From an uncultured Gammaproteobacteria bacterium (GTDB lineage: Bacteria; Patescibacteriota; Patescibacteriia; Magasanikbacterales; GWA2-37-8), in contig CAYZHG010000106.1 of NCBI GenBank assembly GCA_964477455.1, positions 1 to 35,246 of the forward strand: a stretch of DNA of 35,246 nt, in the 5' to 3' direction. The position numbers and the translations under genes are program-made. Shown here piece by piece: positions 2,242-30,689 of the stretch (the first letter of the stretch is position 1; each line of letters opens with the position of its first letter). The notes under the pieces are model-generated. The model saw only the letters and a program-made list of their open reading frames with translations. It did no database searches and was not told where the DNA came from.

Positions 2242-2814
2242 TTAATTTTTTAATAATTTTAATATTTTTATAAATTCATCGGTTCTTTTAGATAAACGTA
2301 TTGTATATTTATCTGCACTTTTTGTTTTTATAATGTATAAATTGGCATCAAAACCTAGTCGTTTAATAATCATTATCACGTCATTAGCTAGTTCTGGAAT
2401 TATGGTGACAAAATTTACCATTTTATATTTTCTATCAAAGTAAATAGATCCGTCCGTTTCAATTAATCCACGTAAACATTGAATAGAAAATTTCTCACTG
2501 TCCATAATCCACTTTGGAATTCTAACCTTTTGTAAATGTTTAGGTCCGCCCTTTGCTTTCCAACCAAGTAATTCTTCCCATTGATTCGAATAGCAACTTA
2601 CATCACAACACCCTTGATTTCGAACAACTATTGAAACTTTGTTAAGCGGCATTATTTTTTGTAATATTTTGCAAATGCGATTTAATAGTTTTGGATATTT
2701 ATTATCACAAGTAATTCGCAGTCTTACGGCGCGATTGTTGGAATTAGAAAGATTGCCATCTCCAATAGCAAGGCCTATCACATAAGCCAGTTCCCTCTTT
2801 TTACGTAGAAGCAT
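2242..2814 (-). CDS. LAGLIDADG homing endonuclease, double-motif, free-standing
   Basis: Two LAGLIDADG-type motifs: LAYVIGLAIGDGNL and CLRGLIETDGSIY. I moved the start to ATG 2814 (MLLRKKRE...) because the track ORF 2242..2949 runs through a tRNA gene and its promoter. Confidence 0.75.
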   Translation of the reverse strand: MLLRKKRELAYVIGLAIGDGNLSNSNNRAVRLRITCDNKYPKLLNRICKILQKIMPLNKVSIVVRNQGCCDVSCYSNQWEELLGWKAKGGPKHLQKVRIPKWIMDSEKFSIQCLRGLIETDGSIYFDRKYKMVNFVTIIPELANDVIMIIKRLGFDANLYIIKTKSADKYTIRLSKRTDEFIKILKLLKN

Positions 2815-2820
2815 ATTTTG

Positions 2821-2904
2821 TGCCGCGGGAGAGAATCGAACTCTCATGATGTTGCCATCGCGGGATTTTGAGTCCCGTTCGTCTACCAATTCCGACACCG
2901 CGGC
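2821..2904 (-). tRNA. tRNA-Leu (anticodon CAA), class II with long variable arm, CCA not encoded
   Basis: Reverse complement: GCCGCGG TG TCGGAATTGGTAGACGA A CGGGA CTCAAAA TCCCG CGATGGCAACATCATG AGAGAG TTCGATT CTCTC CCGCGGC A. All four stems pair. The variable arm is GATG-GCAA-CATC. Confidence 0.9.
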
Positions 2905-2920
2905 TCCTGATTTGTAGATA

Positions 2921-2949
2921 ATTATAGCCAATCTTTTATCTTTTGTCAA
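2921..2949 (-). promoter_or_regulatory. sigma70-type promoter for tRNA-Leu (and the downstream LAGLIDADG gene)
   Basis: On the minus strand: TTGACA (2949-2944), a 17-nt spacer, then TATAAT (2926-2921). The tRNA 5' end lies about 16 nt downstream of the -10. Confidence 0.65.
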
Positions 2950-3763: not shown

Positions 3764-4618
3764 ATGTCTTTAGGTCGCGGTTTAGGCGCTTTGATTACGC
3801 CAACAAATAAAGTGGTCAACCAATCTTCTCATGCTTCTGAAGTAGAAGGAAAAATTTGGTTTATTCCAGTTACTAAAATCACTCCAGATCCAAATCAACC
3901 CCGCAAACATTTTAAACCAGAAGAGTTGGATCAATTGGCCGCCTCAATAAAAGAACATGGTGTGCTACAACCTTTGCTGGTAGTTGAAAAAACTGATGGT
4001 GGTTATGAATTGGTTGCCGGCGAGCGTCGTTGGCGTGCTTCGCAGTTGGCCGGTTTAACAACTGTGCCGGTGCTTATCAAACAGTGGGCGAACCAAGAAA
4101 AATTAGAAGTATCTTTGATTGAAAATATTCAACGTGAAAATTTAAATCCACTCGAAGAAGCATTTGCATACAAAAGATTAATTGAAGAATTTAATCTTAC
4201 TCAACAACAAGTAGCCGATCGAGTAAACAAGAGTCGTCCAGCGATTGCTAACGCGGTACGTTTGTTGGATTTGCCAGCTCCAGTACAAGCGGCATTAGTG
4301 GAAGGAAAAATAAATTCTGGTCAGGCACGCGCTCTACTTTCACTGGCTTCGTCGCAAGAACAACTAAATATGTTGTCTTCGATGTTGGGAGAAAAAATAA
4401 CAGTTCGTGATCTTGAGCGTGAAGCAAATAAACAAAAAGTTTTGAGTAATCGTCCGATTCGAAAAGATCCAAATATTCTTTATTTAGAAGATAAATTGAG
4501 AGCGGAGCTTGGTACGAAGGTGAATATTTCTTCAAAAGGGGTACGGGGGACGATTGCGATTGATTATTATTCGGATGAAGATTTGAAACGGCTGGTGATA
4601 AAATTATTGGGGGAATAA
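3764..4618 (+). CDS. parB: chromosome partitioning protein ParB/Spo0J
   Basis: 284 aa. ParB box GERRWRA, the IENIQRENLNPLEEA motif and an HTH (LTQQQVADRVNKSRPAIANAVRLL). Lies directly after parA. Confidence 0.92.
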   Translation: MSLGRGLGALITPTNKVVNQSSHASEVEGKIWFIPVTKITPDPNQPRKHFKPEELDQLAASIKEHGVLQPLLVVEKTDGGYELVAGERRWRASQLAGLTTVPVLIKQWANQEKLEVSLIENIQRENLNPLEEAFAYKRLIEEFNLTQQQVADRVNKSRPAIANAVRLLDLPAPVQAALVEGKINSGQARALLSLASSQEQLNMLSSMLGEKITVRDLEREANKQKVLSNRPIRKDPNILYLEDKLRAELGTKVNISSKGVRGTIAIDYYSDEDLKRLVIKLLGE

Positions 4619-4634
4619 ACGTGTTGCTAAAAAC

Positions 4635-4727
4635 AAAAACAGACACTTACATTTCGCTTTTTTCAGCCGCGAGGCTGAAAGGATGAGCCTCGGCTCATAA
4701 CCCGCTCAATTGTAAGTGTCTGTTTTT
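4635..4727. repeat. copy A of a conserved two-hairpin core enclosed by a 17-bp terminator-like outer stem
   Basis: The outer stem 4635-4651/4711-4727 is perfect, preceded by an A-run and followed by a T-run. The interior 4652-4710 is the reverse complement of 28840-28894, near-identical in blocks. Confidence 0.65.
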
Positions 4728-4742
4728 TTTGTTATCCTAAAA

Positions 4743-5810
4743 TCAAGTTGTGAGGTGCCAATTTGGGTCGGCTTTGATGTCCTGCCAATTGGTAAAGTTA
4801 TTTTTTTGAGCTTGATAATATCCAGCGACTGCGATCATGGCGGCGTTGTCCATGCAGTTTTTTAATTCTGGGTAGACAAATTTTGTTTCTGGGTATTCTT
4901 TGGTAATTATTTTTGTGAGTGTTTCGCGTAGTTTTTTGTTGGCACTTACTCCACCAGCGAGAATCAGTGTTTTTGGGTTTGTTTCTTTGACGGCACGAAT
5001 AGTTTTATAAACTAATACATCGATAATTGCTTGTTCAAATGATGCACAAAAGTCTTCTCGTGTTGGCGAGTTGGGTGTTTGGCCATAAACACCTGTGGGT
5101 AATTCATATGGCATTATTTTGTCGGCGGATAATTTGTTGGCTTGTAACCAATAAAGTGCGGAGGTTTTTAATCCCGAAAAAGAAAAATCCAAATTGTTAT
5201 CTTTCATCATTGGTCTAGGAAAAATTATTGCATCAGTTTTTCCAGTTTCGGCCAATTTAGAAATTTGTGGACCACCTGGATATGGTAAATCCAAAAGTTT
5301 TGCAACTTTATCAAAACATTCTCCAGCGGCATCGTCTTTTGTGTGGCCTAGTAATTTATATTCACTTGGATTATTTATTTGTGTGATTTCAGTATGGCCA
5401 CCGCTGACTACTAATGCAATTGCTGGATATTCAATTTTTTGATTAGGCGTTAGCTCGACCGAATATATATGTCCCTCCAAATGGTTAACGGCGACCAATG
5501 GAATATTCCAAGCTAAAGATAATGCTCGAGCCGCTTCTGTACCAACTATTAATCCAGTAATAAGACCTGGGCCGGCGGTTACGGCAATCACCTCTGGTTT
5601 TGGTTGGTCTTTGAGAATTTCTTCGATAAGTGGCACAATTTTTTCAGCGTGTAATCGTCCGGCAATTTCTGGAACTACTCCACCATATTTTTTATGAATT
5701 TCAATTTGAGAAGCGGTTTTTTCTGAAATTACAAAACAACCATTTTCAGAACAGTCTAACAGAGCAACAGATGTGTCGTCACAAGATGATTCAATACCTA
5801 ATATAATCAT
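4743..5810 (-). CDS. tsaD: tRNA N6-adenosine threonylcarbamoyltransferase TsaD (Kae1/Gcp family)
   Basis: 355 aa. Contains MIILGIESSCDDTSVALL, NHLEGHIY, VSGGHTE and AGGVSANKKLR. Confidence 0.92.
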   Translation of the reverse strand: MIILGIESSCDDTSVALLDCSENGCFVISEKTASQIEIHKKYGGVVPEIAGRLHAEKIVPLIEEILKDQPKPEVIAVTAGPGLITGLIVGTEAARALSLAWNIPLVAVNHLEGHIYSVELTPNQKIEYPAIALVVSGGHTEITQINNPSEYKLLGHTKDDAAGECFDKVAKLLDLPYPGGPQISKLAETGKTDAIIFPRPMMKDNNLDFSFSGLKTSALYWLQANKLSADKIMPYELPTGVYGQTPNSPTREDFCASFEQAIIDVLVYKTIRAVKETNPKTLILAGGVSANKKLRETLTKIITKEYPETKFVYPELKNCMDNAAMIAVAGYYQAQKNNFTNWQDIKADPNWHLTT

Positions 5811-6212: not shown

Positions 6213-9200
6213 ATGTCTATACTTGGGCTACGAATAGCTGAATTCCGTAAAAAAATGTCTTTCACACAGCAAAAGCTCTCAGAGCTGGCGGGGGTGGATT
6301 ACAACACTCTACGAAAAATCGAAACGGGAATGACTAAGAATCCGGGCCAAGAAATAATTGTAAAAATAGCATCTGCTTTAAGCATTCCGATAACTACGCT
6401 CATTGAAGAACCTAAGCCAACCACCTTCGGCGAAGGCATATTGCCCTTTCTACAGTTATCTCCCGACCGATTTGAAAGTCTTGTTCTAAAGATACTAAGC
6501 GAAGATAGTAATTACCGAAATGTTGAGCCATATGGAGGCATGGGCGATAAAAAGAGAGATGTTTTGGCAAAGATGGTGGTCGATGGTAAGATTTCAGACA
6601 AATCTACCTTATTTCAGGCTAAGAGGCATAAAACAACCTCGTCAACAACCCTAAACGGTGAACTCGATAAAATTAAAATTCATTTTTTTGACACCGCAGA
6701 ACCTGCTACTCCCATCGAGGGAATTGTGTTTTGCTTGGCTGATGTGCCCTCGCCCATAATTAAAGATCGTGTTAAAGAATGTGCGAGGGCATTGGGTTTA
6801 CCCGAACCTATTTTTTGGGACGCTCGCCTACTTGATGTTAAATGCCATGCGAGCAAAAGCATAATGAACGAGTACTTTCGTGGACACCTACACGAAATCA
6901 AAGAGGGAATCGAGAATATTTCTTCACAACTCGAAACCAATTTGTCTGGTATAAAATCAGATGTTAAAAAAAGCATAGAAATGTCCCAATCCGCGATAGC
7001 TGATGTGAAAGAAGCTATTACATCATTTAGCTCAGCTGACGACGCCGAAATGCAAAGAGCTCGACGTTTAATCGGCGAGGGTAAATATACCGAAGCCAAG
7101 GAAATTCTTTTAACGTTAAAAGAGAAAGTAGAAAAATCTAACGATAGTAATCGGCTTAAAAAACTTTACAATAATTTAGGACTTTGCTTTGCAAAAAGTG
7201 GAGATGATTCTTATATTATAAAAGGAATTGAGCTTCTTGAAAAAGCTTTAGATATTGACAATACATTTTCTGCCCCAAAAAGGAACCTGATATCGGTGAT
7301 AACCGATAACGGTTTATCTGAAAAATATAAACAAGCTGTCTATTTGGGCAAACAGCTCTACGAAAGTGAGCCATATAATTCTGACTTTCTGTCCTCCTAT
7401 ATTTTTGCACTGAATGCCTCTGGTAACAGAAAAGACGCTCGCGCAATCTTAGAATCAATAAGTGATATCGAGAAAAGAGTATCCGAAAACGAAGGTCTTT
7501 GCGTTGCTGCGATAATTGTTTATTTTGGTGAAGATGAATTTATGCAAAAAGCAGGGGCTCTGGTCGAAATTGGGTTAAAGAGCTTCCCAGATTCTCCCCC
7601 TATGAATCGTTTTAAAGGCAGTTTTTTGATGTATGAAGCAGAGAAAAAAGGTTACGGGTATCTCGGAGACGATCCCTTACCGATTTTTAAGGATTTAGAT
7701 ATGGTTTCAAAAGCTGTAGAACACTTTGAAAGATCTCTATCTCTTATGGAAAATGGGCCATGGCCAGAATTTGCTAAAAATCAAGTCAGGTTCTTCATCT
7801 ATAACACCCGCACTCTTTTGCACGAGGGAAGAAGAGAACAGCTTGGAGATCTCTTAGAACAATCACGAGAGATCGAACCTGAACTTCTTTCGGACGATGA
7901 AAAAAGGAATAAGCTTCTCGCTGATGTATCACTAGAGTTACATCAAAAAAACTCTCGAAGAGCTTACGAATTGGCGACTGAGTTTATTAAAAAGTACAAC
8001 TGTAGTTATGAAAGCGTAAAAAAAATTGCTAGAAATTTTCTTCAATACGGCGCTGTTGAGCAAGCCATAAAATTTCTGACATCTATTACCGAGGAAGCCA
8101 AAGAAGCTGAAGACTTTGAGTGCTGGGCGTTACTGAGTCAATGCTACCTCCTTATCGGCGACAAAAATTCTGCACTGAGAGTGATGAATGAGTCAAAAAC
8201 ATTTTTTGCCAGTAAAAATCCCGAGACATTTAATACTATTCTATCACATTACGGAGCCGTCGCAGCTCGTTACAAGGACAATAGCGAATCAAGTCGTCTT
8301 CTCGATAACATCTGGGAATTACAAAAAAATCTTCCTAATGAAACCATCCTAAAACCAATCAAGGCCATTGAAGAAGATGGTAGTCTTTCCCCCGAGATAA
8401 AGAATATATTAGAAAATGCTAAGGAAGATTTTGAATCTAAACGCGATTTGCTGGCAACAAATCCTGTTCCTGTCTATTTTTTGATGGTAGATAAGATGTT
8501 TGGCAGATCATTTCCAGAAGTTTTGGAACTTCCAAGAGAAAGCTTTGATTTCAGTTTTGTGCTACCGTACAATCAGCTAGACAATGACTTTGCTAAAAAG
8601 CAAAAATTGAACTTCGATAATGGTACTACTTTCGTCTTGGATTATAGTGCGCTTTTAAATTTAGCCCGAAGTAAGCAACTTGGGCTGTTTGCTGCTCTTG
8701 GGAAAAAAGTCGTCGCCTCAGAGCATCTTCTCTGGACCGTTCAAAGAGATCTTATTATTTTAGAAGACTCTTCATTAAGAGAAGCGTGGAATTTTTTACG
8801 AAGTGATTTAATAGAGTTATTCCCTCATAGGGAACAACTAGTTGGGATGCCCGAAAAAATGCGAACATTCTTTGAAACTGAAATGAAATGCCAGTGGTTA
8901 ACGCAAGAGATTGACTACTGCATTAAAAATGATGCGGTCTTAATCACTGACGATCTTAGATTGTGGCATTATATGTACTCTACAGAAGTTAAATCGAAAG
9001 CCGTTAACAGCTTTATCTTCTTCCAAGAAGGATTATCGAGAGGAGCGCTGGACGTTGTACAATACAGCCTGGTTATCGCTGAACTCGCCGATCTGTTTTA
9101 TCACTTTCTACCCTTTAATGGGGAGAATTTCCTACACATTATTCTCGAAGATGATCGCAAGATAGAACAGGGACAATTAGCATCACTAACTTTTAAATAT

Positions 9201-15542: not shown

Positions 15543-17993
15543 ATGAAAATATTTACCAAGGTAATAATATTTGTTTCAATATCAACATTGGCTATTGTTG
15601 TTGGTTTGTTTTTTGCAAGTCCAACCAAAGCTTTTCCTCCAACACCTTTAACAGTAAATCTTGGTCTTGCTGATAGTTTTGCTATCTTGGCTGGTTCGGC
15701 AGTTACCAACGTTCCTACATCCATAATTACTGGAAATCTTGGTTTGAGTCCAGCGGCTGGTAGTTTTTATGATGGTGGTGTAACACAAGCGCAGGTTTCT
15801 GGGACGATTTATACAACTAATGCGGCAGGTCCAGCAGGATATGTAATGGATCCAACTTTATTGACTGCTGCCAAGCAAGATATAACCGATGCGATTACCG
15901 ATGCTTCTGGACGAACACCATACACTGTTCTTGCCACTCCTGAACTTGGGGGTGCTACTACCACCGCTGGCCTATATACGTATGGTACTTTGCAGGTTAC
16001 CGGTGTCTTAACATTGGATGGACAAGGTGATCCTGATGCAGTTTTTATTTTTAAAGCCGATACTACTTTAACAACAGCGGCAAGTAGTGAAGTGCGGTTG
16101 GTTAATGGTGCCAATGCCTGTAATGTTTTTTGGGTTGTAGGCACATCAAATGGAACGCTTGGAACAAATTCGATTTTCAAGGGAACAATTTTAGCAGATC
16201 AATCAATTTCACTTTTGACTGGAGCTAATGTGGTAGGAAGATTGTTGGCATTTACTGGCGGTGTCACTTTGCAAGGAAATACTATCACCAAACCAACTTG
16301 TTCGCTTGCCGCCCCAACTCTACAACTTTTAAAAACTGTGACAAATGATAATGGTGGTACAGCGACCAATACAGCTTGGACCCTTACCGCTACGGGTGCT
16401 AGCGGTTCACCTACAAATTTATCTGGTACTACCACCGTTAGTAGTGGTGTATCATTTCAAGCTGACACCTACACATTAGCCGAAAATGGTGGACCTACTG
16501 GTTATGCTTCTAGTACCTATAGTTGTGTTAAAAATGGTGTAACAACTGTTAGTAATACCATAACTTTAGTTGCTGGCGATGTTGCAGTTTGTACTATAAA
16601 TAATAATGACATAGCGCCACAACTTACAATCACTAAAACTGTCAATAATACTCATGGCGGTATAAAAACCACTTCTAGTTTTTCTTACTATATAGACGGC
16701 GTGACTACAACTTTAGGAGTGGCAAGTACAACTTCTATTGGTGTTCATACCGTATCTGAATCTGCTGATTCTGGCTATTTGGCTACTTATGGTGGTGATT
16801 GTTCTTCGACTGGTACAACAACACTTTCAATAGGTGAATCTAAAACTTGTACAATTACCAATAATGACATTGCGCCTTTACTCACTGTGACAAAAGTTGT
16901 TGTAAATGATAGTGGTCATGGAAATAAAATAATTTCTGACTTTTCATTATTTATTGATGGCTTCAGTGTAGTTTCAAGTATTGCTAGTACAACTTCCGTT
17001 GGACTTCATACTGTATCGGAAACCGCTGATTCTGGTTATACTTCGGTGATTGGTGGTGATTGTAATGCGGATGGCACAATTACATTGGAAGTGGGAGCGG
17101 TAAAAATTTGTACTATCACAAATAATGATATTATATTAACATCGAGTGGTGCAAGTGGTGGAAGTGGGAGTAATTATAATTTAATACCGGTGCCGCCACT
17201 TATTGATGTTGTAAAAGTGCCGAGTCCGCTCGCTTTGCCAGGTGGTCCTGGTTTGGTCACCTATACCTACACTTTGCGGAATGTTGGTACTGTTTCAGTC
17301 AACAATATTAAATTACTCGATGATTCGTGTAGTTCATTGTATCTTATTTCTGGAGATGTAAATGGAAATTCAAAACTCGAAAAAACAGAAATATGGAAAT
17401 ACCGTTGTTCAGTTAAACTTACAAAAACTCATACCAACATTGTTGTTGCAACCGGTTGGGCAAATGGGATTAGTGCCACAGATATTGCAAATGCAACTGT
17501 TGTAGTTGGTCTGTCAGTGGTACCACCGCTGATTCATGTTACAAAAATTCCTAGTCCGCTTGCTTTGCTTGCTGAAGGTGGTTATGTTACATATACCGAA
17601 ACAATTACAAATCCTGGTAAAGTCACATTGAATAATGTTCGCCTTACTGATGATAAATGTAAACCAGTAAAATATATTTCTGGTGATTTAAATAATAACA
17701 ATAAATTGGAAACTTCTGAGACATGGGTTTACACATGTAAATCAAATCTTACAAAAACTACTACTAATACGGCTGTTGCTACCGGTGAGGCCAATGGTTT
17801 GGTAGCTAGAGATTTTGCAATAGCGACAGTCGTAGTGGACCCAATTGGTGTTACGGTTTTATCTTCCGCTATAGTTGTGCCAAAATTACCAAATACAGGT
17901 TCGGATCCTCTAGAGAATACATTAATTTGGTCGGTTACCTTAGTTGGAATACTTTCTTCTCTAACCGCCGTCTATATATTTTTGAAAAAATAA
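15543..17993 (+). CDS. large LPXTG-anchored surface protein: DUF3494 (ice-binding-like) head plus five repeated Ig-like/beta-sandwich modules
   Basis: 816 aa with a signal peptide. LGLADSFAILAGSAVTNVPTSIITGNLGLSPAAG marks the DUF3494 head. There are three modules ending in C-TI(T/N)NNDI and two modules with the VTYTYT..N.G...L.N..L.DD.C pattern. The C-terminus is PKLPNTGS, then a TM helix, then KK. Confidence 0.87.
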   Translation: MKIFTKVIIFVSISTLAIVVGLFFASPTKAFPPTPLTVNLGLADSFAILAGSAVTNVPTSIITGNLGLSPAAGSFYDGGVTQAQVSGTIYTTNAAGPAGYVMDPTLLTAAKQDITDAITDASGRTPYTVLATPELGGATTTAGLYTYGTLQVTGVLTLDGQGDPDAVFIFKADTTLTTAASSEVRLVNGANACNVFWVVGTSNGTLGTNSIFKGTILADQSISLLTGANVVGRLLAFTGGVTLQGNTITKPTCSLAAPTLQLLKTVTNDNGGTATNTAWTLTATGASGSPTNLSGTTTVSSGVSFQADTYTLAENGGPTGYASSTYSCVKNGVTTVSNTITLVAGDVAVCTINNNDIAPQLTITKTVNNTHGGIKTTSSFSYYIDGVTTTLGVASTTSIGVHTVSESADSGYLATYGGDCSSTGTTTLSIGESKTCTITNNDIAPLLTVTKVVVNDSGHGNKIISDFSLFIDGFSVVSSIASTTSVGLHTVSETADSGYTSVIGGDCNADGTITLEVGAVKICTITNNDIILTSSGASGGSGSNYNLIPVPPLIDVVKVPSPLALPGGPGLVTYTYTLRNVGTVSVNNIKLLDDSCSSLYLISGDVNGNSKLEKTEIWKYRCSVKLTKTHTNIVVATGWANGISATDIANATVVVGLSVVPPLIHVTKIPSPLALLAEGGYVTYTETITNPGKVTLNNVRLTDDKCKPVKYISGDLNNNNKLETSETWVYTCKSNLTKTTTNTAVATGEANGLVARDFAIATVVVDPIGVTVLSSAIVVPKLPNTGSDPLENTLIWSVTLVGILSSLTAVYIFLKK
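16311..17135 (+). repeat. three tandem intragenic domain repeats (about 88-100 codons each)
   Basis: aa 257-357, 358-445 and 446-531. Each begins (I)AP.LT.TK.V and ends with a Cys followed by TI(T/N)NNDI. Confidence 0.7.
17187..17837 (+). repeat. two tandem intragenic domain repeats (about 107 codons each)
   Basis: aa 549-655 and 659-765. Both start VPPLI.V.K.PSPLAL and contain SGD.N.N.KLE..E.W.Y.C...LTKT.TN..VATG.ANG. Confidence 0.7.
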
Positions 17994-28173: not shown

Positions 28174-28261
28174 TAGGTTTGTTAACATTTTATTATTTAC
28201 AAAATTGATTAAATTCTATATAATACTGACTTAGTATAATTTATTTAAATATTTGAACACT

Positions 28262-28801
28262 ATGTGTCATGAAAATGGTGGAACTATGCACTCAATGCAT
28301 GGAAAAATGAGAGATTTTGGCTTGTTGGCTTTGCGTTTAGCAATCGCTTTTGTCTTTATTTACAATGGCTATGGTAAAATTTTCACTAACCATGCAATGG
28401 CTAGTGGTATGTTTGGAAAATTAATTGGACCAGAATCAGCTGGATCTTTCTGGGCATACTTTGTTGGTAGTGCAGAATTTTTTGGTGGCTTAATGGTATT
28501 GTTAGGTGTATTTGCCACTTATGCCGCTGCTTGGTTGTCTGTGATCATGGTAGTAGCTATTTTCACTGCTCATTGGGGTGGTCCGATAAATGGTTATTTC
28601 TTGGTTGTATCATTATTAGGAGGCTGTTTGGCTTTATTGGGAAATGGCGCTGGCCGTTTTCGTTTGGTCAAAAAAGAATGTTGCTGTCCTGAATGTAAGG
28701 CAATGTGTTCTGATAAACATGAGGATGCAAAAGTAGTTGGCAAAGGTGATGATGCTGACGATTGTTGTAGTGGTGGTGGTTGTTGCGGAGACAAAAAATA
28801 A
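28262..28801 (+). CDS. DoxX family membrane protein with Cys/His/Met-rich termini
   Basis: The DoxX core is LLALRLAIAFVFIYNGYGK followed by 4 TM helices. The N-terminus is MCHENGGTMHSMHGKM. The C-terminal tail is KKECCCPECKAMCSD...DDCCSGGGCCGDKK. The track start at 28253 is a TTG. Confidence 0.75.
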   Translation: MCHENGGTMHSMHGKMRDFGLLALRLAIAFVFIYNGYGKIFTNHAMASGMFGKLIGPESAGSFWAYFVGSAEFFGGLMVLLGVFATYAAAWLSVIMVVAIFTAHWGGPINGYFLVVSLLGGCLALLGNGAGRFRLVKKECCCPECKAMCSDKHEDAKVVGKGDDADDCCSGGGCCGDKK

Positions 28802-28810
28802 TTTTCAAAC

Positions 28811-28923
28811 AAAATAAAACACCGGATATTGTTACTTTAAAGCGGGTTATGAAGCCGAGGCTTCATCCCTGAGTCCTCGCGGACGAGGAAAGCGTAAAGT
28901 AATAATATCCGGTGTTTTATTTT
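28811..28923. repeat. copy B of the conserved two-hairpin core enclosed by a 24-29-bp terminator-like outer stem
   Basis: The outer stem 28816-28839/28895-28918 is perfect apart from one G-U pair and can extend to 28811/28923. The interior 28840-28894 matches the reverse complement of 4652-4710. Confidence 0.65.
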
Positions 28924-30689
28924 TCCAAATTTTGGATGTCTTCTTGAATTTTTAACCATTCGTCTTCTTTGGCTTTTGTTTCTTTGTCGAGGTCACCAAG
29001 GTGTCGATAATCATCTAGTGAAAATGCTTGTGGGTCTTTGGCTTGTTTGCGCATAAGGCGCATTTTTTCTTTTTCAAGGTCAAAGATATCATCTTCGATT
29101 TTTTTTAATTTCTTTTTTTCAGTTTTGATGTCTTCATAACGCTGTTTTTTTTCGTCGTCCGTTTTGGCTGGTTTTATTTTTATGATTTCTTCGGTTTGTT
29201 GAGGTCCGATGGATTGTTCTAAATTATAGACGTATTCTTCGTACGTTCCAGGGTAGCGACGAACTTCGCCATTTTTCACTTCAACGATCATCGTGGCGAT
29301 AGAGTTTACAAAGGTGCGGTTATGACTAATGAAAAGTACTGTTCCGTTGAATTCTTCTAATGCTAAGCCCAGCGCTTCCACGGTTTCAAAATCCAAATGG
29401 TTGGTCGGTTCGTCCAGTAACAGAACCTTACTTTTGGAAAGCAAAATACTAGCAAGACACAAGCGCGCTTTTTCTCCACCACTTAACACCGAAATATCTT
29501 TTTCCAGATCTCCATCTTTGAATAAAAAATTTCCCGCCATTTTTAAAATCTCCTCATCATTGATATCGCTTGGTGCGTTGGTGCGCAAATGTGACCAGAC
29601 TTTTTGTTCTGGATCCAAAGCGTTTGGTACATGTTGAGCGTAATAGGCAAAGGTGCTATCTACCGCCCATTTGAATTTACCACCAATAGGTGAAAGTTCA
29701 TTGGCCAAAGTTTTCAGAAATGTGGTTTTGCCTTGACCGTTATCACCAAGAATAGCGACGTGTTCACCACGATCAATATCAAGGGTAATGTTTTCGGCAA
29801 TCGTTTTGTTTGGATAACCAATTGCTAATTTTTCACAACGGAATAAAAGACCTTTTTTGGTTTCTATGTTTGGTATTTTAATACGTACGGTTGTGAGTGG
29901 ACTTTGAATGTCTAATTTTTGAAGTTTTTCAATAGCCTTTAATTTACTCTGAGCTTGTGAAGCCTTGCTGGCTTTGTAGCGAAATTTATCAACAAAATCT
30001 TGCAGATGTCTTTGTTCGCGTTCAATTTTTTTATTATATAATTTGGCAAAAGCGAGGCGCTCTTCTTTGTAGGCCAAATATTCATCTATTGGTCGAGGAA
30101 ATAATGTCAGATTACCATGTTCAATTTCCAGCGTTTGTTCGCAGGTGCGTTTTAAGAATTCGCGATCATGTGAAATAATTAAAAATGATTCACTGTAGTC
30201 GCGTAAAAATTTTTCTAATAAAAGCTGAGTATGAACATCGAGATAATTAGTAGGTTCATCAAGTAAAAAAAGATTTGGCTCTTTGAGCAACATCGATGAC
30301 AGTCGAATTCGCATTTGATAACCACCCGAAAGTGTAGAAAGTTTCGTAGTTAATAACTCATTTTTAATTTCAAATTTTCCTGCCACTTTGGAACACTGCC
30401 AAGTTTCTTTTTGTGTAGTGCGTTCCAAAAATTCCAGCACCGTTTCGTCTGGATCAATCAGTTCATGTTGTTCTAAATATCCCAAGCGCGTAATTGGTTG
30501 TATCGCGATGATCCCAGTATCTTGAGTTTCTTGACCAACGATCATTCTAAAAAGCGTGGACTTGCCAGCACCATTGCGACCAATCACACCAATCTTTTGT
30601 TTCGTGTGAATTGCCAAATCAGCATCTTTAAAAAGTGCTTGTTGATGATATGATTTATTTAATTTTTCTATCGTAAGTAGAGTGGCCAT
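28917..30689 (-). CDS. ABC-F family ATPase (two ABC cassettes, no TM domain; translation-factor type)
   Basis: 590 aa. Walker A GRNGAGKST and GDNGQGKTT, signatures LSGGYQMR and LSGGEKAR, and a Lys/Glu-rich coiled-coil C-terminus. Confidence 0.9.
   Translation of the reverse strand: MATLLTIEKLNKSYHQQALFKDADLAIHTKQKIGVIGRNGAGKSTLFRMIVGQETQDTGIIAIQPITRLGYLEQHELIDPDETVLEFLERTTQKETWQCSKVAGKFEIKNELLTTKLSTLSGGYQMRIRLSSMLLKEPNLFLLDEPTNYLDVHTQLLLEKFLRDYSESFLIISHDREFLKRTCEQTLEIEHGNLTLFPRPIDEYLAYKEERLAFAKLYNKKIEREQRHLQDFVDKFRYKASKASQAQSKLKAIEKLQKLDIQSPLTTVRIKIPNIETKKGLLFRCEKLAIGYPNKTIAENITLDIDRGEHVAILGDNGQGKTTFLKTLANELSPIGGKFKWAVDSTFAYYAQHVPNALDPEQKVWSHLRTNAPSDINDEEILKMAGNFLFKDGDLEKDISVLSGGEKARLCLASILLSKSKVLLLDEPTNHLDFETVEALGLALEEFNGTVLFISHNRTFVNSIATMIVEVKNGEVRRYPGTYEEYVYNLEQSIGPQQTEEIIKIKPAKTDDEKKQRYEDIKTEKKKLKKIEDDIFDLEKEKMRLMRKQAKDPQAFSLDDYRHLGDLDKETKAKEDEWLKIQEDIQNLEK

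What the first reader, a model, noticed from the sequence alone, without database searches (positions are those of the whole stretch)
4635..4727. Conserved ~55-nt two-hairpin core embedded in a terminator stem (copy A); the same core recurs inverted 24 kb away
Between convergent parB and tsaD, a perfect 17-bp stem (A-run before, T-run after) encloses 59 nt instead of a small loop. That interior forms two hairpins: 4661-4680 UUUCAGCC-GCGA-GGCUGAAA, which carries a GNRA loop on this strand, and 4683-4698 AUGAGCC-UC-GGCUCAU. The reverse complement of the interior is attgaGCGGGTTATGA-GCCGAGGC-TCATCCtttcagCCTCGCGGctgaaaAAAGCGaaa. It aligns with 28840-28894, aaGCGGGTTATGAaGCCGAGGCtTCATCCctgagtCCTCGCGGacgaggAAAGCG. 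The outer stems of the two loci share no sequence but are both perfectly paired. A conserved core with non-conserved but always-paired flanks is what a structured RNA looks like. It is also what a small element that inserts into terminator hairpin loops would look like. It is not what a MITE with conserved terminal repeats would look like. I cannot match the core to any RNA family I know.
Basis: seen in the sequence. Interest (0 to 1): 0.72.

Follow-up and report, generated by a model that had tools for sequence, protein, structure and literature searches.

The report
Repeated capped hairpin in Magasanikbacteria genomes
The two look-alike sequences belong to a previously undescribed family of over 100 small repeated elements in one group of ultra-small groundwater bacteria: each is a long hairpin of arbitrary sequence capped by a strongly conserved three-armed fold, sitting at gene ends and between genes, and its function is not yet known.

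Summary
Copy A (4628-4734, core on the - strand) and copy B (28811-28923, core on the + strand) share a 51-53 nt core inside unrelated stems that are almost perfectly paired.

The family is large. Pattern scans plus a covariance model found 110 distinct copies, all in Candidatus Magasanikbacteria-type contigs. There are at least 15 copies per roughly 0.7-1 Mb assembly. No Rfam family matches and no viral contig carries it.

The fold is a three-way junction: a long stem P1 and two hairpins, P2 and P3. Covariation support is strong: 96% of cells are paired, and 23 of 30 pairs change on both sides.

It is not tied to terminators. About 40% of copies lack A/T tracts and lie inside housekeeping operons such as groES|groEL and rpsG|fusA. 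No gene class is associated.

The same sites are filled in species whose synonymous sites are near saturation. Yet the core can be flipped or swapped between subfamilies there, whole hairpins are present or absent, and some copies in one genome share arms.

Best reading: a REP-like interspersed hairpin module. It spreads or recombines at the DNA level and is kept because it folds compactly in transcripts as a terminator or stable stem-loop. The functional strand and the mode of spread are unresolved.

The parts
4628..4734 (-). Copy A, whole hairpin module (subfamily V1). It lies between parB (3764-4618, +) and tsaD (4743-5810, -).
   Evidence: Inverted repeat I9. Fold -44.8 to -45.8 kcal/mol, z about -7.5. 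Covariance-model hit 4642-4719 (-), 92.9 bits. Flanking genes identified by Pfam.
4628..4654 (.). Copy A, stem arm on the low-coordinate side, which is the 3' arm on the core strand. It includes the A-run (a U-tract for the - strand transcript).
   Evidence: The 17-bp perfect part is 4635-4651 / 4712-4728.
4655..4705 (-). Copy A, conserved three-way-junction core. It reads GCGGG...AAAGCG on the - strand.
   Evidence: Alignment to copy B and to 110 distinct copies.
4661..4680 (.). Copy A, hairpin P3: UUUCAGCC / GGCUGAAA. The loop is GCGA on the + strand and UCGC on the - strand.
   Evidence: The three middle pairs covary across the family.
4683..4698 (.). Copy A, hairpin P2: AUGAGC / GCUCAU. 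The loop is CUCG on the + strand and CGAG on the - strand. It is extended by GG 4681-4682 pairing with CC 4701-4702 across an AA/UU bulge.
4708..4734 (.). Copy A, stem arm on the high-coordinate side, with the T-run.
28811..28923 (+). Copy B, whole hairpin module (subfamily V2). It lies between the DoxX gene (28253-28801, +) and the ABC-F ATPase gene (28917-30689, -).
   Evidence: Inverted repeat I4. Fold -59.5 kcal/mol, z -11.9. Covariance-model hit 28827-28908 (+), 62.3 bits. Pfam. The same copy is present in an independent assembly, L170.
28842..28894 (+). Copy B, conserved core. P2 is 28849-28866, an 8-bp stem with loop CGAG. P3 is 28869-28888, CUGAGUCC-UCGC-GGACGAGG, with a tandem G.A at its base.
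28811..28839 (.). Copy B, 5' stem arm with the A-run.
28895..28923 (.). Copy B, 3' stem arm with the T-run.

Best explanation
Copies A and B are members of a family of self-folding hairpin modules, 80-120 nt long, found only in a clade of Candidatus Magasanikbacteria (CPR/Patescibacteria).

Each module has three layers:
- a long stem of arbitrary sequence, 14-38 bp;
- an inner about 12 bp of stem that is semi-conserved;

I read it as a REP-like interspersed element. At the DNA level it is copied or recombined between hairpin sites. This explains whole-hairpin gain or loss, cores flipped in place, subfamily swaps, and arm sequences shared between copies of one genome.

It persists because its ends pair and its interior folds compactly, so the transcript still carries one long stable stem. 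With flanking A and U tracts that stem acts as a bidirectional intrinsic terminator; both window copies are of this type. Without such tracts it acts as an intercistronic or 3' stem-loop in operons.

The near-invariant sequence of the cap implies recognition by a trans-acting factor, either the mobilising enzyme or a host protein.

Shown: the family, its fold, its distribution, site conservation, flips, and presence/absence. Inferred: the mode of spread, the role in RNA, and the existence of a binding factor.
For: Family size and host range:
- 47 copies in GTDB genomes, almost all from Magasanikbacteria MAGs.
- 85 copies in the listed metagenome contigs.
- 110 distinct copies after covariance-model alignment.
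- No viral hit.

Structure:
- 96.0% of cells are paired, against 77.6% in shuffles.
- 23 of 30 pairs change on both sides.
- The covariation score is 0.514, against 0.152 in shuffles (0 of 500 reach it) and at most 0.112 with slid partners.
- P2 shows compensated base-pair insertions, and P3 shows at least 9 compensated triplets.

Generic placement:
- 34 convergent, 44 co-directional and 2 divergent contexts.
- A/T tracts on both sides in 42 copies, on one side in 30, on neither in 49.
- Neighbours are unrelated housekeeping genes.

Long retention and constraint:
- Orthologous sites are filled in species with four-fold-site identity of only 0.31-0.52.
- Between two relatives with 91% identical flanks, the 137-nt hairpin region has only 3 differences. 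All are in P2 and all are compensated.

DNA-level dynamics:
- The core is flipped at the groES|groEL site, with flanks and outermost stem kept (L037:1360 against L053:866).
- V1 and V2 sit in opposite orientation at three other shared sites.
- The module between prfA and tsaC, arms included, is absent from two species.
- L036 and L042, in one genome, share about 115 nt including 22-nt arms. L015 and L018 share arms but carry different cores.
- Assemblies break or become chimeric at the core (L001; L109).
Against: - No transposase, Y1/HUH enzyme or autonomous parent element was found. The left-half pattern never occurs without the right half in the loci examined (L059-L138, with a relaxed regex over all stored loci). 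A tblastn with remembered Y1 sequences over 1.16 Mb gave only a spurious hit in a 941-aa AAA+ chaperone-like ORF (my reading of its sequence).
- There is no direct target-site duplication. Conservation fades gradually outward instead of ending at sharp termini. That looks more like a constrained RNA or DNA structure than a transposon.
- Most comparable sites are filled in both species, roughly 12 shared against 3 not. This fits vertical inheritance under selection better than ongoing random transposition.
- No transcript data exist, so terminator or stabiliser activity is inferred only from A/U tracts and position.
- The functional strand is unresolved. Tandem G.A pairs and G.U excess favour the core strand: 84:14 in model columns and 82:19 in arms, though many are inherited within subfamilies. 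GNRA and UUCG/CUUG-type loops and a 33:11 orientation bias in co-directional contexts favour the complement.
Confidence: 0.5

Rival explanations
1. A purely host-encoded, multi-copy cis-acting RNA motif. A long stem capped by a conserved protein-binding three-way junction would mark mRNA 3' ends and intercistronic sites for termination, RNase III-type processing or protection from exonucleases. It would have no present-day mobility, and copies would be inherited vertically.
For: - Strong covariation.
- The core is nearly invariant while neutral sites are saturated.
- Sites are shared among species.
- The hairpin is more conserved than its flanking genes between close relatives.
- Conservation decays gradually along P1.
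- On the strand transcribed in 33 of 44 co-directional contexts, the loops are GNRA and UUCG/CUUG-like.
- Stems of 14-38 bp are in the size range of RNase III substrates (my own knowledge, not tested here).
Against: - The core is flipped at the same operon site in different species, and 11 of 44 co-directional copies have the other orientation. A strand-specific RNA role should fix the orientation.
- V1/V2 replacement, whole-hairpin presence/absence, and arms shared within a genome point to DNA-level turnover.
- Tandem G.A and G.U asymmetry lie on the strand that is usually not the mRNA strand.
Confidence: 0.2
2. A non-autonomous single-strand-DNA element of the IS200/IS605 / REP-RAYT kind. 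The hairpins on one DNA strand would be recognised by a Y1 (HUH) enzyme encoded elsewhere in the genome, which copies or moves the module without terminal repeats or target duplications.
For: - There are no sharply bounded, conserved terminal inverted repeats of the usual MITE kind and no direct duplication.
- Strand-specific features (G.T over A.C, tandem G.A) follow the core and not the direction of transcription.
- The tetranucleotide TTAC lies 7-10 nt 5' of the core in most V1 copies. TTAC is the IS608 target, by my own knowledge; this is a lead, not a test.
- Both orientations occur, and placement is intergenic, as for REPs.
Against: - No Y1 gene was seen in 1.16 Mb of sequence centred on the modules, although RAYT genes are normally flanked by their REPs. 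The queries came from memory, so sensitivity was low.
- The two hairpins are unlike each other, whereas IS200/IS605 ends carry similar hairpins.
- There is no GTAG/CGTC tag.
- Orientation bias against GC skew is weak: 26:15 for V1.
- TTAC is absent from V2b and from many operon copies.
Confidence: 0.15
3. A DNA-level site. The conserved cap, extruded as a cruciform or as double-stranded DNA, would be bound by a chromosome-organising, replication or recombination protein, as gyrase and IHF bind BIMEs.
For: - Orientation independence relative to genes.
- About one copy per 35-45 kb.
- P2 and P3 are near-perfect palindromes that read the same on both strands except for their loops.
Against: - Compensated changes in P2 and P3, and in stems of arbitrary sequence, are not needed for recognition of double-stranded DNA.
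- Cruciforms with a 55-nt centre extrude poorly (my own knowledge).
- Copies sit strictly in short intergenic gaps at gene ends, which suggests a link to transcripts.
Confidence: 0.08
4. A free-standing small RNA or self-cleaving ribozyme family.
For: A compact three-way junction with a conserved core. RNA families not yet in Rfam do exist.
Against: - No Rfam ribozyme or sRNA model scores even at E of 10 or less; only generic miRNA-hairpin models appear, far below their cut-offs.
- There is no conserved promoter, because the flanks are the variable arms.
- Both orientations occur inside operons.
- The copy number and placement are those of an interspersed repeat.
Confidence: 0.05
5. Two ordinary terminators that resemble each other by chance.
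For: Both window copies have A and T tracts and lie between convergent genes.
Against: There are 110 distinct copies with the same core in related genomes and metagenomes. The shared motifs occur exactly only at the two loci in the window.
Confidence: 0.01

Closest known systems
REP / BIME elements and REPINs of proteobacteria (mobilised by RAYT Y1 transposases)
   Same: - Short, multi-copy and strictly intergenic.
- Found at 3' ends and between cistrons, in both orientations.
- Hairpin-forming, with several sequence subfamilies per genome.
- Long persistence at sites.
- No terminal repeats or target duplications.
- Proposed roles in mRNA stabilisation and termination.
   Different: - In REPs the stem sequence is conserved and the loop is small. 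Here the stem is free and the apex, a 51-57 nt three-way junction, is conserved.
- No GTAG/CGTC tag.
- Single modules, not clustered mosaics.
- Tens of copies per genome, not hundreds.
- No RAYT gene found.
- The host is a CPR lineage.
MITEs such as Correia/NEMIS (Neisseria), ERIC, RUP
   Same: Small non-coding interspersed repeats that fold into long hairpins in transcripts, sit near gene ends, and show presence/absence between relatives.
   Different: Those elements have conserved terminal inverted repeats, direct target duplications (TA for Correia), and a related insertion sequence. None of these features was seen here.
IS200/IS605-derived palindrome-associated elements (PATEs)
   Same: No terminal repeats, no duplication, sub-terminal hairpins, and strand-specific features.
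   Different: Here the two hairpins are adjacent, unlike each other, and enclosed by a long stem. No TnpA was found, and no conserved cleavage tetranucleotides are present in all subfamilies.
Bidirectional intrinsic terminators between convergent genes
   Same: Both window copies and 42 of 121 family members have an A tract, a G+C-rich stem and a T tract, as do the plain terminators of this window.
   Different: Plain terminators here have 3-6 nt loops and 10-16 bp stems. The modules carry an extra about 12 bp of stem and a 51-57 nt branched cap, and 40% of them have no U tract at all.
IS1397 / ISKpn1 (insertion sequences that insert into the loops of REP hairpins)
   Same: A precedent, from my own knowledge, for DNA elements that home to the apex of intergenic hairpins. 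This is one possible history of the copies that sit in terminator-like stems.
   Different: Those are full insertion sequences with a transposase. Here no leftover loop bases flank the conserved part, and one site shows the whole hairpin as the indel.

Membership tests
Any Rfam 15 RNA family | Covariance-model score at or above the family's gathering threshold | tested here: not met
   The gathering scan of the window finds only 3 tRNAs. E-value scans of both loci give only generic miRNA-precursor hairpin models at 13-38 bits, against cut-offs of 47-211, plus an 18-bit partial S4 leader match.
REP / REPIN | Conserved stem sequence forming a 20-40 nt imperfect palindrome with a small loop | tested here: not met
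   Stems differ between copies. The conserved part is the 51-57 nt branched apex.
REP / REPIN | Conserved GTAG or CGTC tetranucleotide at one end of the palindrome | tested here: not met
   Position-specific base counts of the 35 nt on either side of the core show no such tag. The consensus is (AT)AATTACTTTTGA ... GAAAAAGTCATT.
REP / REPIN | A cognate RAYT (Y1 transposase) gene in the genome, usually flanked by the repeats | tested here: inconclusive
   A tblastn of two Y1 transposase sequences recalled from memory against 1.16 Mb of fetched loci gave one spurious hit inside a 941-aa AAA+ chaperone-like ORF (my reading of its sequence). Whole genomes could not be scanned.
REP / REPIN | High copy number, strictly extragenic | tested here: met
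   At least 15 copies in 684 kb of one MAG and at least 16 in another. There are 2 in this 35-kb window. All lie in short intergenic gaps.
MITE | Conserved terminal inverted repeats with sharp ends | tested here: not met
   The inner stem is semi-conserved, but information content fades gradually outward. The consensus differs between subfamilies.
MITE | Direct target-site duplication | tested here: not met
   The sequences flanking the semi-conserved stem are inverted, not direct, repeats (e.g. ACA...TGT, GAC...GTC), read from the listing.
MITE | A related autonomous insertion sequence sharing the ends | tested here: not met
   Every true hit of the left-half pattern examined in genomes and in the listed metagenome loci L059-L138 is a complete small module. 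A relaxed regex over all stored loci found nothing else. No viral hits.
MITE | Presence/absence polymorphism at orthologous sites | tested here: met
   The module L037:5187-5307 is absent from L053 and L040. L038 is filled where L048 has a plain terminator.
IS200/IS605-derived element | Insertion 3' of a fixed tetra- or pentanucleotide, and orientation tied to the replication direction | tested here: inconclusive
   TTAC lies at -10..-7 in most V1 copies but not in V2b or many operon copies. Orientation against local GC skew is 26:15 for V1 and 8:3 for V2, which is not significant.
Intrinsic (bidirectional) terminator | G+C-rich stem directly followed by a U tract (and preceded by an A tract for the opposite strand) | tested here: met
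   Met for both window copies. For the family: both tracts in 42 copies, one in 30, none in 49 of 121. Activity was not tested.
Structured RNA (generic) | Compensatory base changes supporting a common fold | tested here: met
   Caveats: the alignment was fitted to the model's structure, and the same pairs would form in single-stranded DNA and on either strand.
Structured RNA (generic) | Consistent orientation relative to transcription | tested here: not met
   In co-directional contexts 33 copies are antisense and 11 sense with respect to the core strand. Flips occur at orthologous operon sites.

The most novel reading that the evidence does not exclude
The module is a new kind of mobile or recombining unit. 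It would live at the tip of hairpins and copy itself, with part of its old stem, into the apex of other hairpins or into other copies, without terminal repeats, target duplication or a recognisable transposase.

Alternatively, it is the recognition signal of a CPR-specific system that punctuates operon transcripts, with a dedicated protein reading the conserved three-way junction.
Probability: 0.2. Interest if true: 0.8.

Novelty: new variant of a known kind. Interest (0 to 1): 0.55.

Why it matters
CPR/Patescibacteria genomes are tiny and streamlined, and are usually thought to be poor in repeats and regulatory RNA. A family that occupies tens of intergenic gaps per megabase and is kept nearly invariant across species with saturated synonymous sites must either do something for the cell or be a very successful genomic parasite.

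Its architecture inverts that of classical REP elements: the apex is conserved and the stem is free.

It supplies a ready marker for this clade. It explains assembly breaks and chimeras in these MAGs. It also gives a concrete target for Term-seq, RNase III and pull-down experiments on how these organisms end and process transcripts.

Tried and rejected
1. Known RNA family. Rfam at gathering and at E of 10 or less gives nothing relevant.

2. More copies in the window. There are none beyond A and B.

3. Hammerhead, kink-turn or k-junction, tetraloop-receptor and loop-loop kissing readings. I checked these by eye against the alignment. The conserved nucleotides do not fit, or do not covary. Not pursued.

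4. A small ORF. ATGAGCCGAGGC... would give an 11-aa peptide in some V1 copies, but the stop is lost when the P3 triplet changes. Rejected.

5. DNA uptake signal. The element is too long, and its structure covaries. Rejected.

6. Strand assignment by G.U against A.C. The ratios are 84:14 in model columns and 82:19 in arms. A first minimum-free-energy count on the outer arms gave 19:14, and many of the G.U pairs are inherited within subfamilies. This conflicts with the tetraloop and orientation evidence. Left unresolved.

7. Orientation against GC skew or gene-strand bias. Weak: 26:15.

8. Autonomous parent element or Y1 transposase. Not found.

9. Phage carriage. None.

10. Strain-level polymorphism of the window's own copies. 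Only identical or truncated contigs are on record.

11. Literature. Three full-text searches found no description of such an element.

12. Tool failures. (scripts) failed for technical reasons and were repeated. One search was rejected for a bad coordinate.

Full report
**Observation**

- Copy A has 27-nt arms, 4628-4654 and 4708-4734, 89% complementary. They include a perfect 17-bp part flanked by an A-run and a T-run.
- Copy B has 29-nt arms, 28811-28839 and 28895-28923, 97% complementary.
- The reverse complement of A's interior aligns with B's interior over the whole core, while the arms are unrelated.
- Either strand of either locus folds far better than shuffles: z is -7.3 to -11.9 and no shuffle does as well.
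- The shared 11-mer and the TCATCC-N6-CCTCGCGG motif occur exactly only at these two loci in the window.
- Pfam confirms the neighbours: parA-parB | A | tsaD, and DoxX | B | ABC-F ATPase, convergent in both cases.

**A large family in one bacterial lineage**

One scan of 185,579 species genomes with GCGGGTTATGA-N0-1-GCCGAGGC gave 57 stretches. Forty-seven hits are complete copies of the same element.

- Almost all come from MAGs named Candidatus Magasanikbacteria or Magasanikiibacteriota.
- One MAG has at least 15 copies on 684 kb of contigs, and another has at least 16.
- The remaining hits are chance matches inside coding DNA of unrelated organisms.
- Three hits lie in two MAGs labelled Gammaproteobacteria. 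One of them (L033) is orthologous to a Magasanikbacteria locus (L046), with a 71% identical flanking protein. Those contigs are probably mis-binned.

A metagenome scan with a looser left-half pattern gave 111 stretches.

I built covariance model R1 (79 positions, 30 pairs) from 37 copies.

- It finds 52 copies in the 364 kb fetched from genomes and the window. Only 3 of these were missed by the exact pattern, so the invariance of the core is not merely an effect of how copies were found.
- It finds 85 copies in the listed metagenome loci.
- It finds 113 copies (110 distinct) in a reduced set of 99 sources.
- The window holds only copies A and B.
- No viral contig carries the pattern.
- Rfam has nothing comparable.
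- Three full-text literature searches found no description.

**Anatomy**

'Core strand' means the - strand for copy A and the + strand for copy B. Read on that strand, a typical V1 copy is:

- an optional A tract;
- a variable G+C-rich stem;
- a semi-conserved inner stem, (AT)AATTAC(Y)UUU;
- the dinucleotide GA;
- GC | G | GG-UU-[P2: AUGAGC-CGAG-GCUCAU]-CC | [P3: UUUYRNCC-UCGC-GGNYRAAA] | AAA | GC;
- the dinucleotide GA;
- AAAA(R)GUNAUU, then the variable stem, then an optional U tract.

The enclosing stem therefore continues through a tandem G.A/A.G step into G-C and C-G pairs, and the core is a three-way junction.

The tandem G.A step is replaced in some copies by Watson-Crick pairs: UU/AA, UA/UA, UG/CA, GA/UC.

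There are subfamilies:

- V1.
- V2a and V2b. Their P3 base is C(U/C)GAG...CGAGG, which gives a second tandem G.A with a neighbouring U.G to C-G covariation. P2 is usually 8 bp.
- V2b also has a different inner-stem consensus, UUUGGUAUUUUUUGA...GAAAAAAUUACCAAA.

Copy A is V1 and copy B is V2a.

**Covariation**

On the 110 distinct model-aligned copies:

| measure | observed | shuffles | slid partners |
|---|---|---|---|
| cells forming standard pairs | 96.0% | 77.6% | 40-48% |
| pairs with changes on both sides | 23 of 30 | mean 16.8 | 10-16 |
| covariation score | 0.514 | 0.152 (0 of 500 reach it) | at most 0.112 |

- P3 shows at least nine different compensated triplets in an otherwise invariant hairpin.
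- P2 shows compensated pair insertions (A-U or G-C) and compensated substitutions, such as AUGACGC/GCGUCAU and AUGUGCC/GGCACAU.

Two caveats apply. The alignment was fitted to the model's structure. The same pairs would form in RNA of either strand and in single-stranded DNA.

**Where the copies sit**

With simple ORF calls, 80 copies could be classified: 34 between convergent genes, 44 between co-directional genes and 2 between divergent genes.

A and T tracts: both sides in 42 of 121 copies, one side in 30, neither in 49. About 40% of copies are therefore not terminator-like.

Neighbouring genes are unrelated housekeeping genes:

- groES | groEL
- prfA | tsaC | ksgA (two modules)
- rpsG | fusA
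- secY | recG
- murG | rpoD
- genes for PPDK, glutamate dehydrogenase and YchF

This rules out a pathway-specific regulator.

Plain terminators in the window have 3-6 nt loops and 10-16 bp stems. Only 2 of about 7 convergent junctions in the window carry the module.

**Evolution**

Flanking-protein comparisons show that many sites are filled in several species, roughly 12 shared against 3 not. Four-fold degenerate sites of those species are only 31-52% identical, which is near saturation.

The arms of orthologous copies are mostly unrelated yet paired, and the core is unchanged.

At shorter distance, L105 and L118 have 91% identical flanks. The 137 nt around the module show only 3 differences, all in P2 and all compensated. 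The 24-bp arms are identical. The whole hairpin is therefore constrained.

There is also clear DNA-level turnover.

1. At groES|groEL the flanks (TTTGTCG...CTCTTTA) are kept. The arms still begin TTTGG/CCAAA in three of the four species, and diverge to TTCGA/TTGAA in L053. The inner arms differ, and the core points one way in L037 and the other way in L053 and L144.
2. At three other shared sites a V1 core in one species faces a V2 core in the opposite orientation in another: L036/L015, L016-L044/L021 and L026/L051.
3. The module between prfA and tsaC in L037 (also present in L121) is absent from L053 and L040. There the stop and start codons are 1-8 nt apart and no hairpin exists, so the indel is the whole hairpin, arms included.
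4. L038 carries a module where L048 has a plain terminator with unrelated arms.
5. Within one genome, L036 and L042 share about 115 nt including 22-nt arms. L015 and L018 share arms but carry V2 and V1 cores.
6. Assemblies end or become chimeric at the core (L001; L109).

**Which strand?**

This is unresolved.

Favouring the core strand:
- the tandem G.A motifs, which would be U.C/C.U on the complement;
- an excess of G.U over A.C: 84:14 in model columns and 82:19 in arms.

Many of these G.U pairs mark subfamilies and are not independent. A first minimum-free-energy count on the outer arms gave only 19:14.

Favouring the complement:
- P3 is capped by GCGA or GUGA in 98 of 121 copies;
- P2 is capped by CUCG, UUCG or CUUG in 104 of 121 copies;
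- in co-directional contexts the complement is the mRNA strand 33 times against 11. I checked this by hand with Pfam-annotated genes for rpsG|fusA, secY|recG, murG|rpoD, gdh and prfA|tsaC.

Apart from the loops and junction strands, the stems of P1, P2 and P3 read the same on both strands. The module is therefore nearly symmetric, and either transcript folds into an equivalent three-way junction.

**Interpretation**

The family is real, structured and new to the databases searched. Its placement, copy number, two orientations, subfamilies and lack of terminal repeats or duplications resemble REP-type elements most closely. It fails the defining REP features:

- the stem is not conserved;
- there is no GTAG/CGTC tag;
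- no RAYT gene was seen.

It also fails the MITE features: no sharp terminal repeats, no direct duplication, no parent insertion sequence.

I therefore file it as a new variant of the interspersed-hairpin kind and not as a member of any named family.

My best account, at confidence 0.5, has three parts.

- The module is copied or recombined between hairpin sites at the DNA level.
- It is tolerated or kept because its ends pair and its interior folds compactly. The transcript then keeps a long stable stem. This stem is a bidirectional terminator where A/U tracts flank it, as at both window copies, and an intercistronic stem-loop elsewhere.
- The invariant cap implies a factor that reads it.

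The rivals are:

- a purely host-encoded protein-binding RNA motif (0.2);
- a single-strand-DNA, Y1-type element (0.15);
- a DNA-level binding site (0.08);
- a free-standing sRNA or ribozyme (0.05);
- chance (about 0.01).

No transcript or protein data were available, so every functional step is an inference.

Noticed in passing
window 2242-2949 (-) and 2821-2904 (-): A LAGLIDADG_3-domain ORF (235 aa from a TTG start) overlaps a tRNA gene with a long variable arm on the same strand. An independent assembly calls the gene at 229 aa. It is a free-standing homing-endonuclease-like gene next to or over a tRNA, between a metallophosphatase gene and parA.
   Followed up: partly
L001 8060-8087 (ENA contig with an identical ParB): The contig ends inside the arm of copy A that adjoins parB. 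It carries a G-to-A difference in that arm (aaacaaacact against aaacagacact). This is an assembly break at the repeat, plus a strain-level stem variant whose partner base could not be seen.
   Followed up: no
L004, L019 (CAZXFG) and L033 (CAZXEV): MAGs labelled 'uncultured Gammaproteobacteria' carry complete modules. L033 is orthologous to the Magasanikbacteria locus L046, with a 71% identical flanking protein. These contigs are probably mis-binned CPR DNA.
   Followed up: partly
L109 568-658 against L076 498-588: The two have an identical left arm and core. In L109 the right flank is unrelated to that of L076 and does not pair with the left arm. This is most likely a chimeric metagenome assembly joined at the repeated core.
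   Followed up: no
L042 about 7280-7370: At the 3' end of the glutamate-dehydrogenase gene, where L041 carries a module, L042 has a different long hairpin. Its arms are AGAGAGCGAATA... / ...TATTCGCTCTCT, its interior is an unrelated stretch of about 30 nt, and a T tract follows. It could be another kind of apex insert or just a large-loop terminator.
   Followed up: no
L105 1085-1149 and L113 52-127: Two 5'-truncated copies lack GCGGGTT. They share the same replacement sequence upstream (TATTAATAAATTAATACTTGTCTCRTGACTCGT). This is a decayed or interrupted copy conserved in two samples.
   Followed up: no
window 28740-28801: The DoxX-family protein ends in a cysteine- and glycine-rich tail (…DDCCSGGGCCGDKK), just upstream of copy B.
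   Followed up: no
window 16589-16642 and 16847-16900: A 54-nt direct repeat (72% identity, 258 nt apart) lies inside the 816-aa ORF 15543-17993. This suggests an internally repetitive protein.
   Followed up: no
L037 5187-6017 (also L121, L158): The tsaC (Sua5/YrdC) gene is bracketed by two modules. In L037 and L121 they are in inverted orientation; in L158 the downstream one is flipped. Copy A of the window abuts tsaD, another t6A gene. This is probably coincidence given the varied neighbours, but it was not tested statistically.
   Followed up: partly
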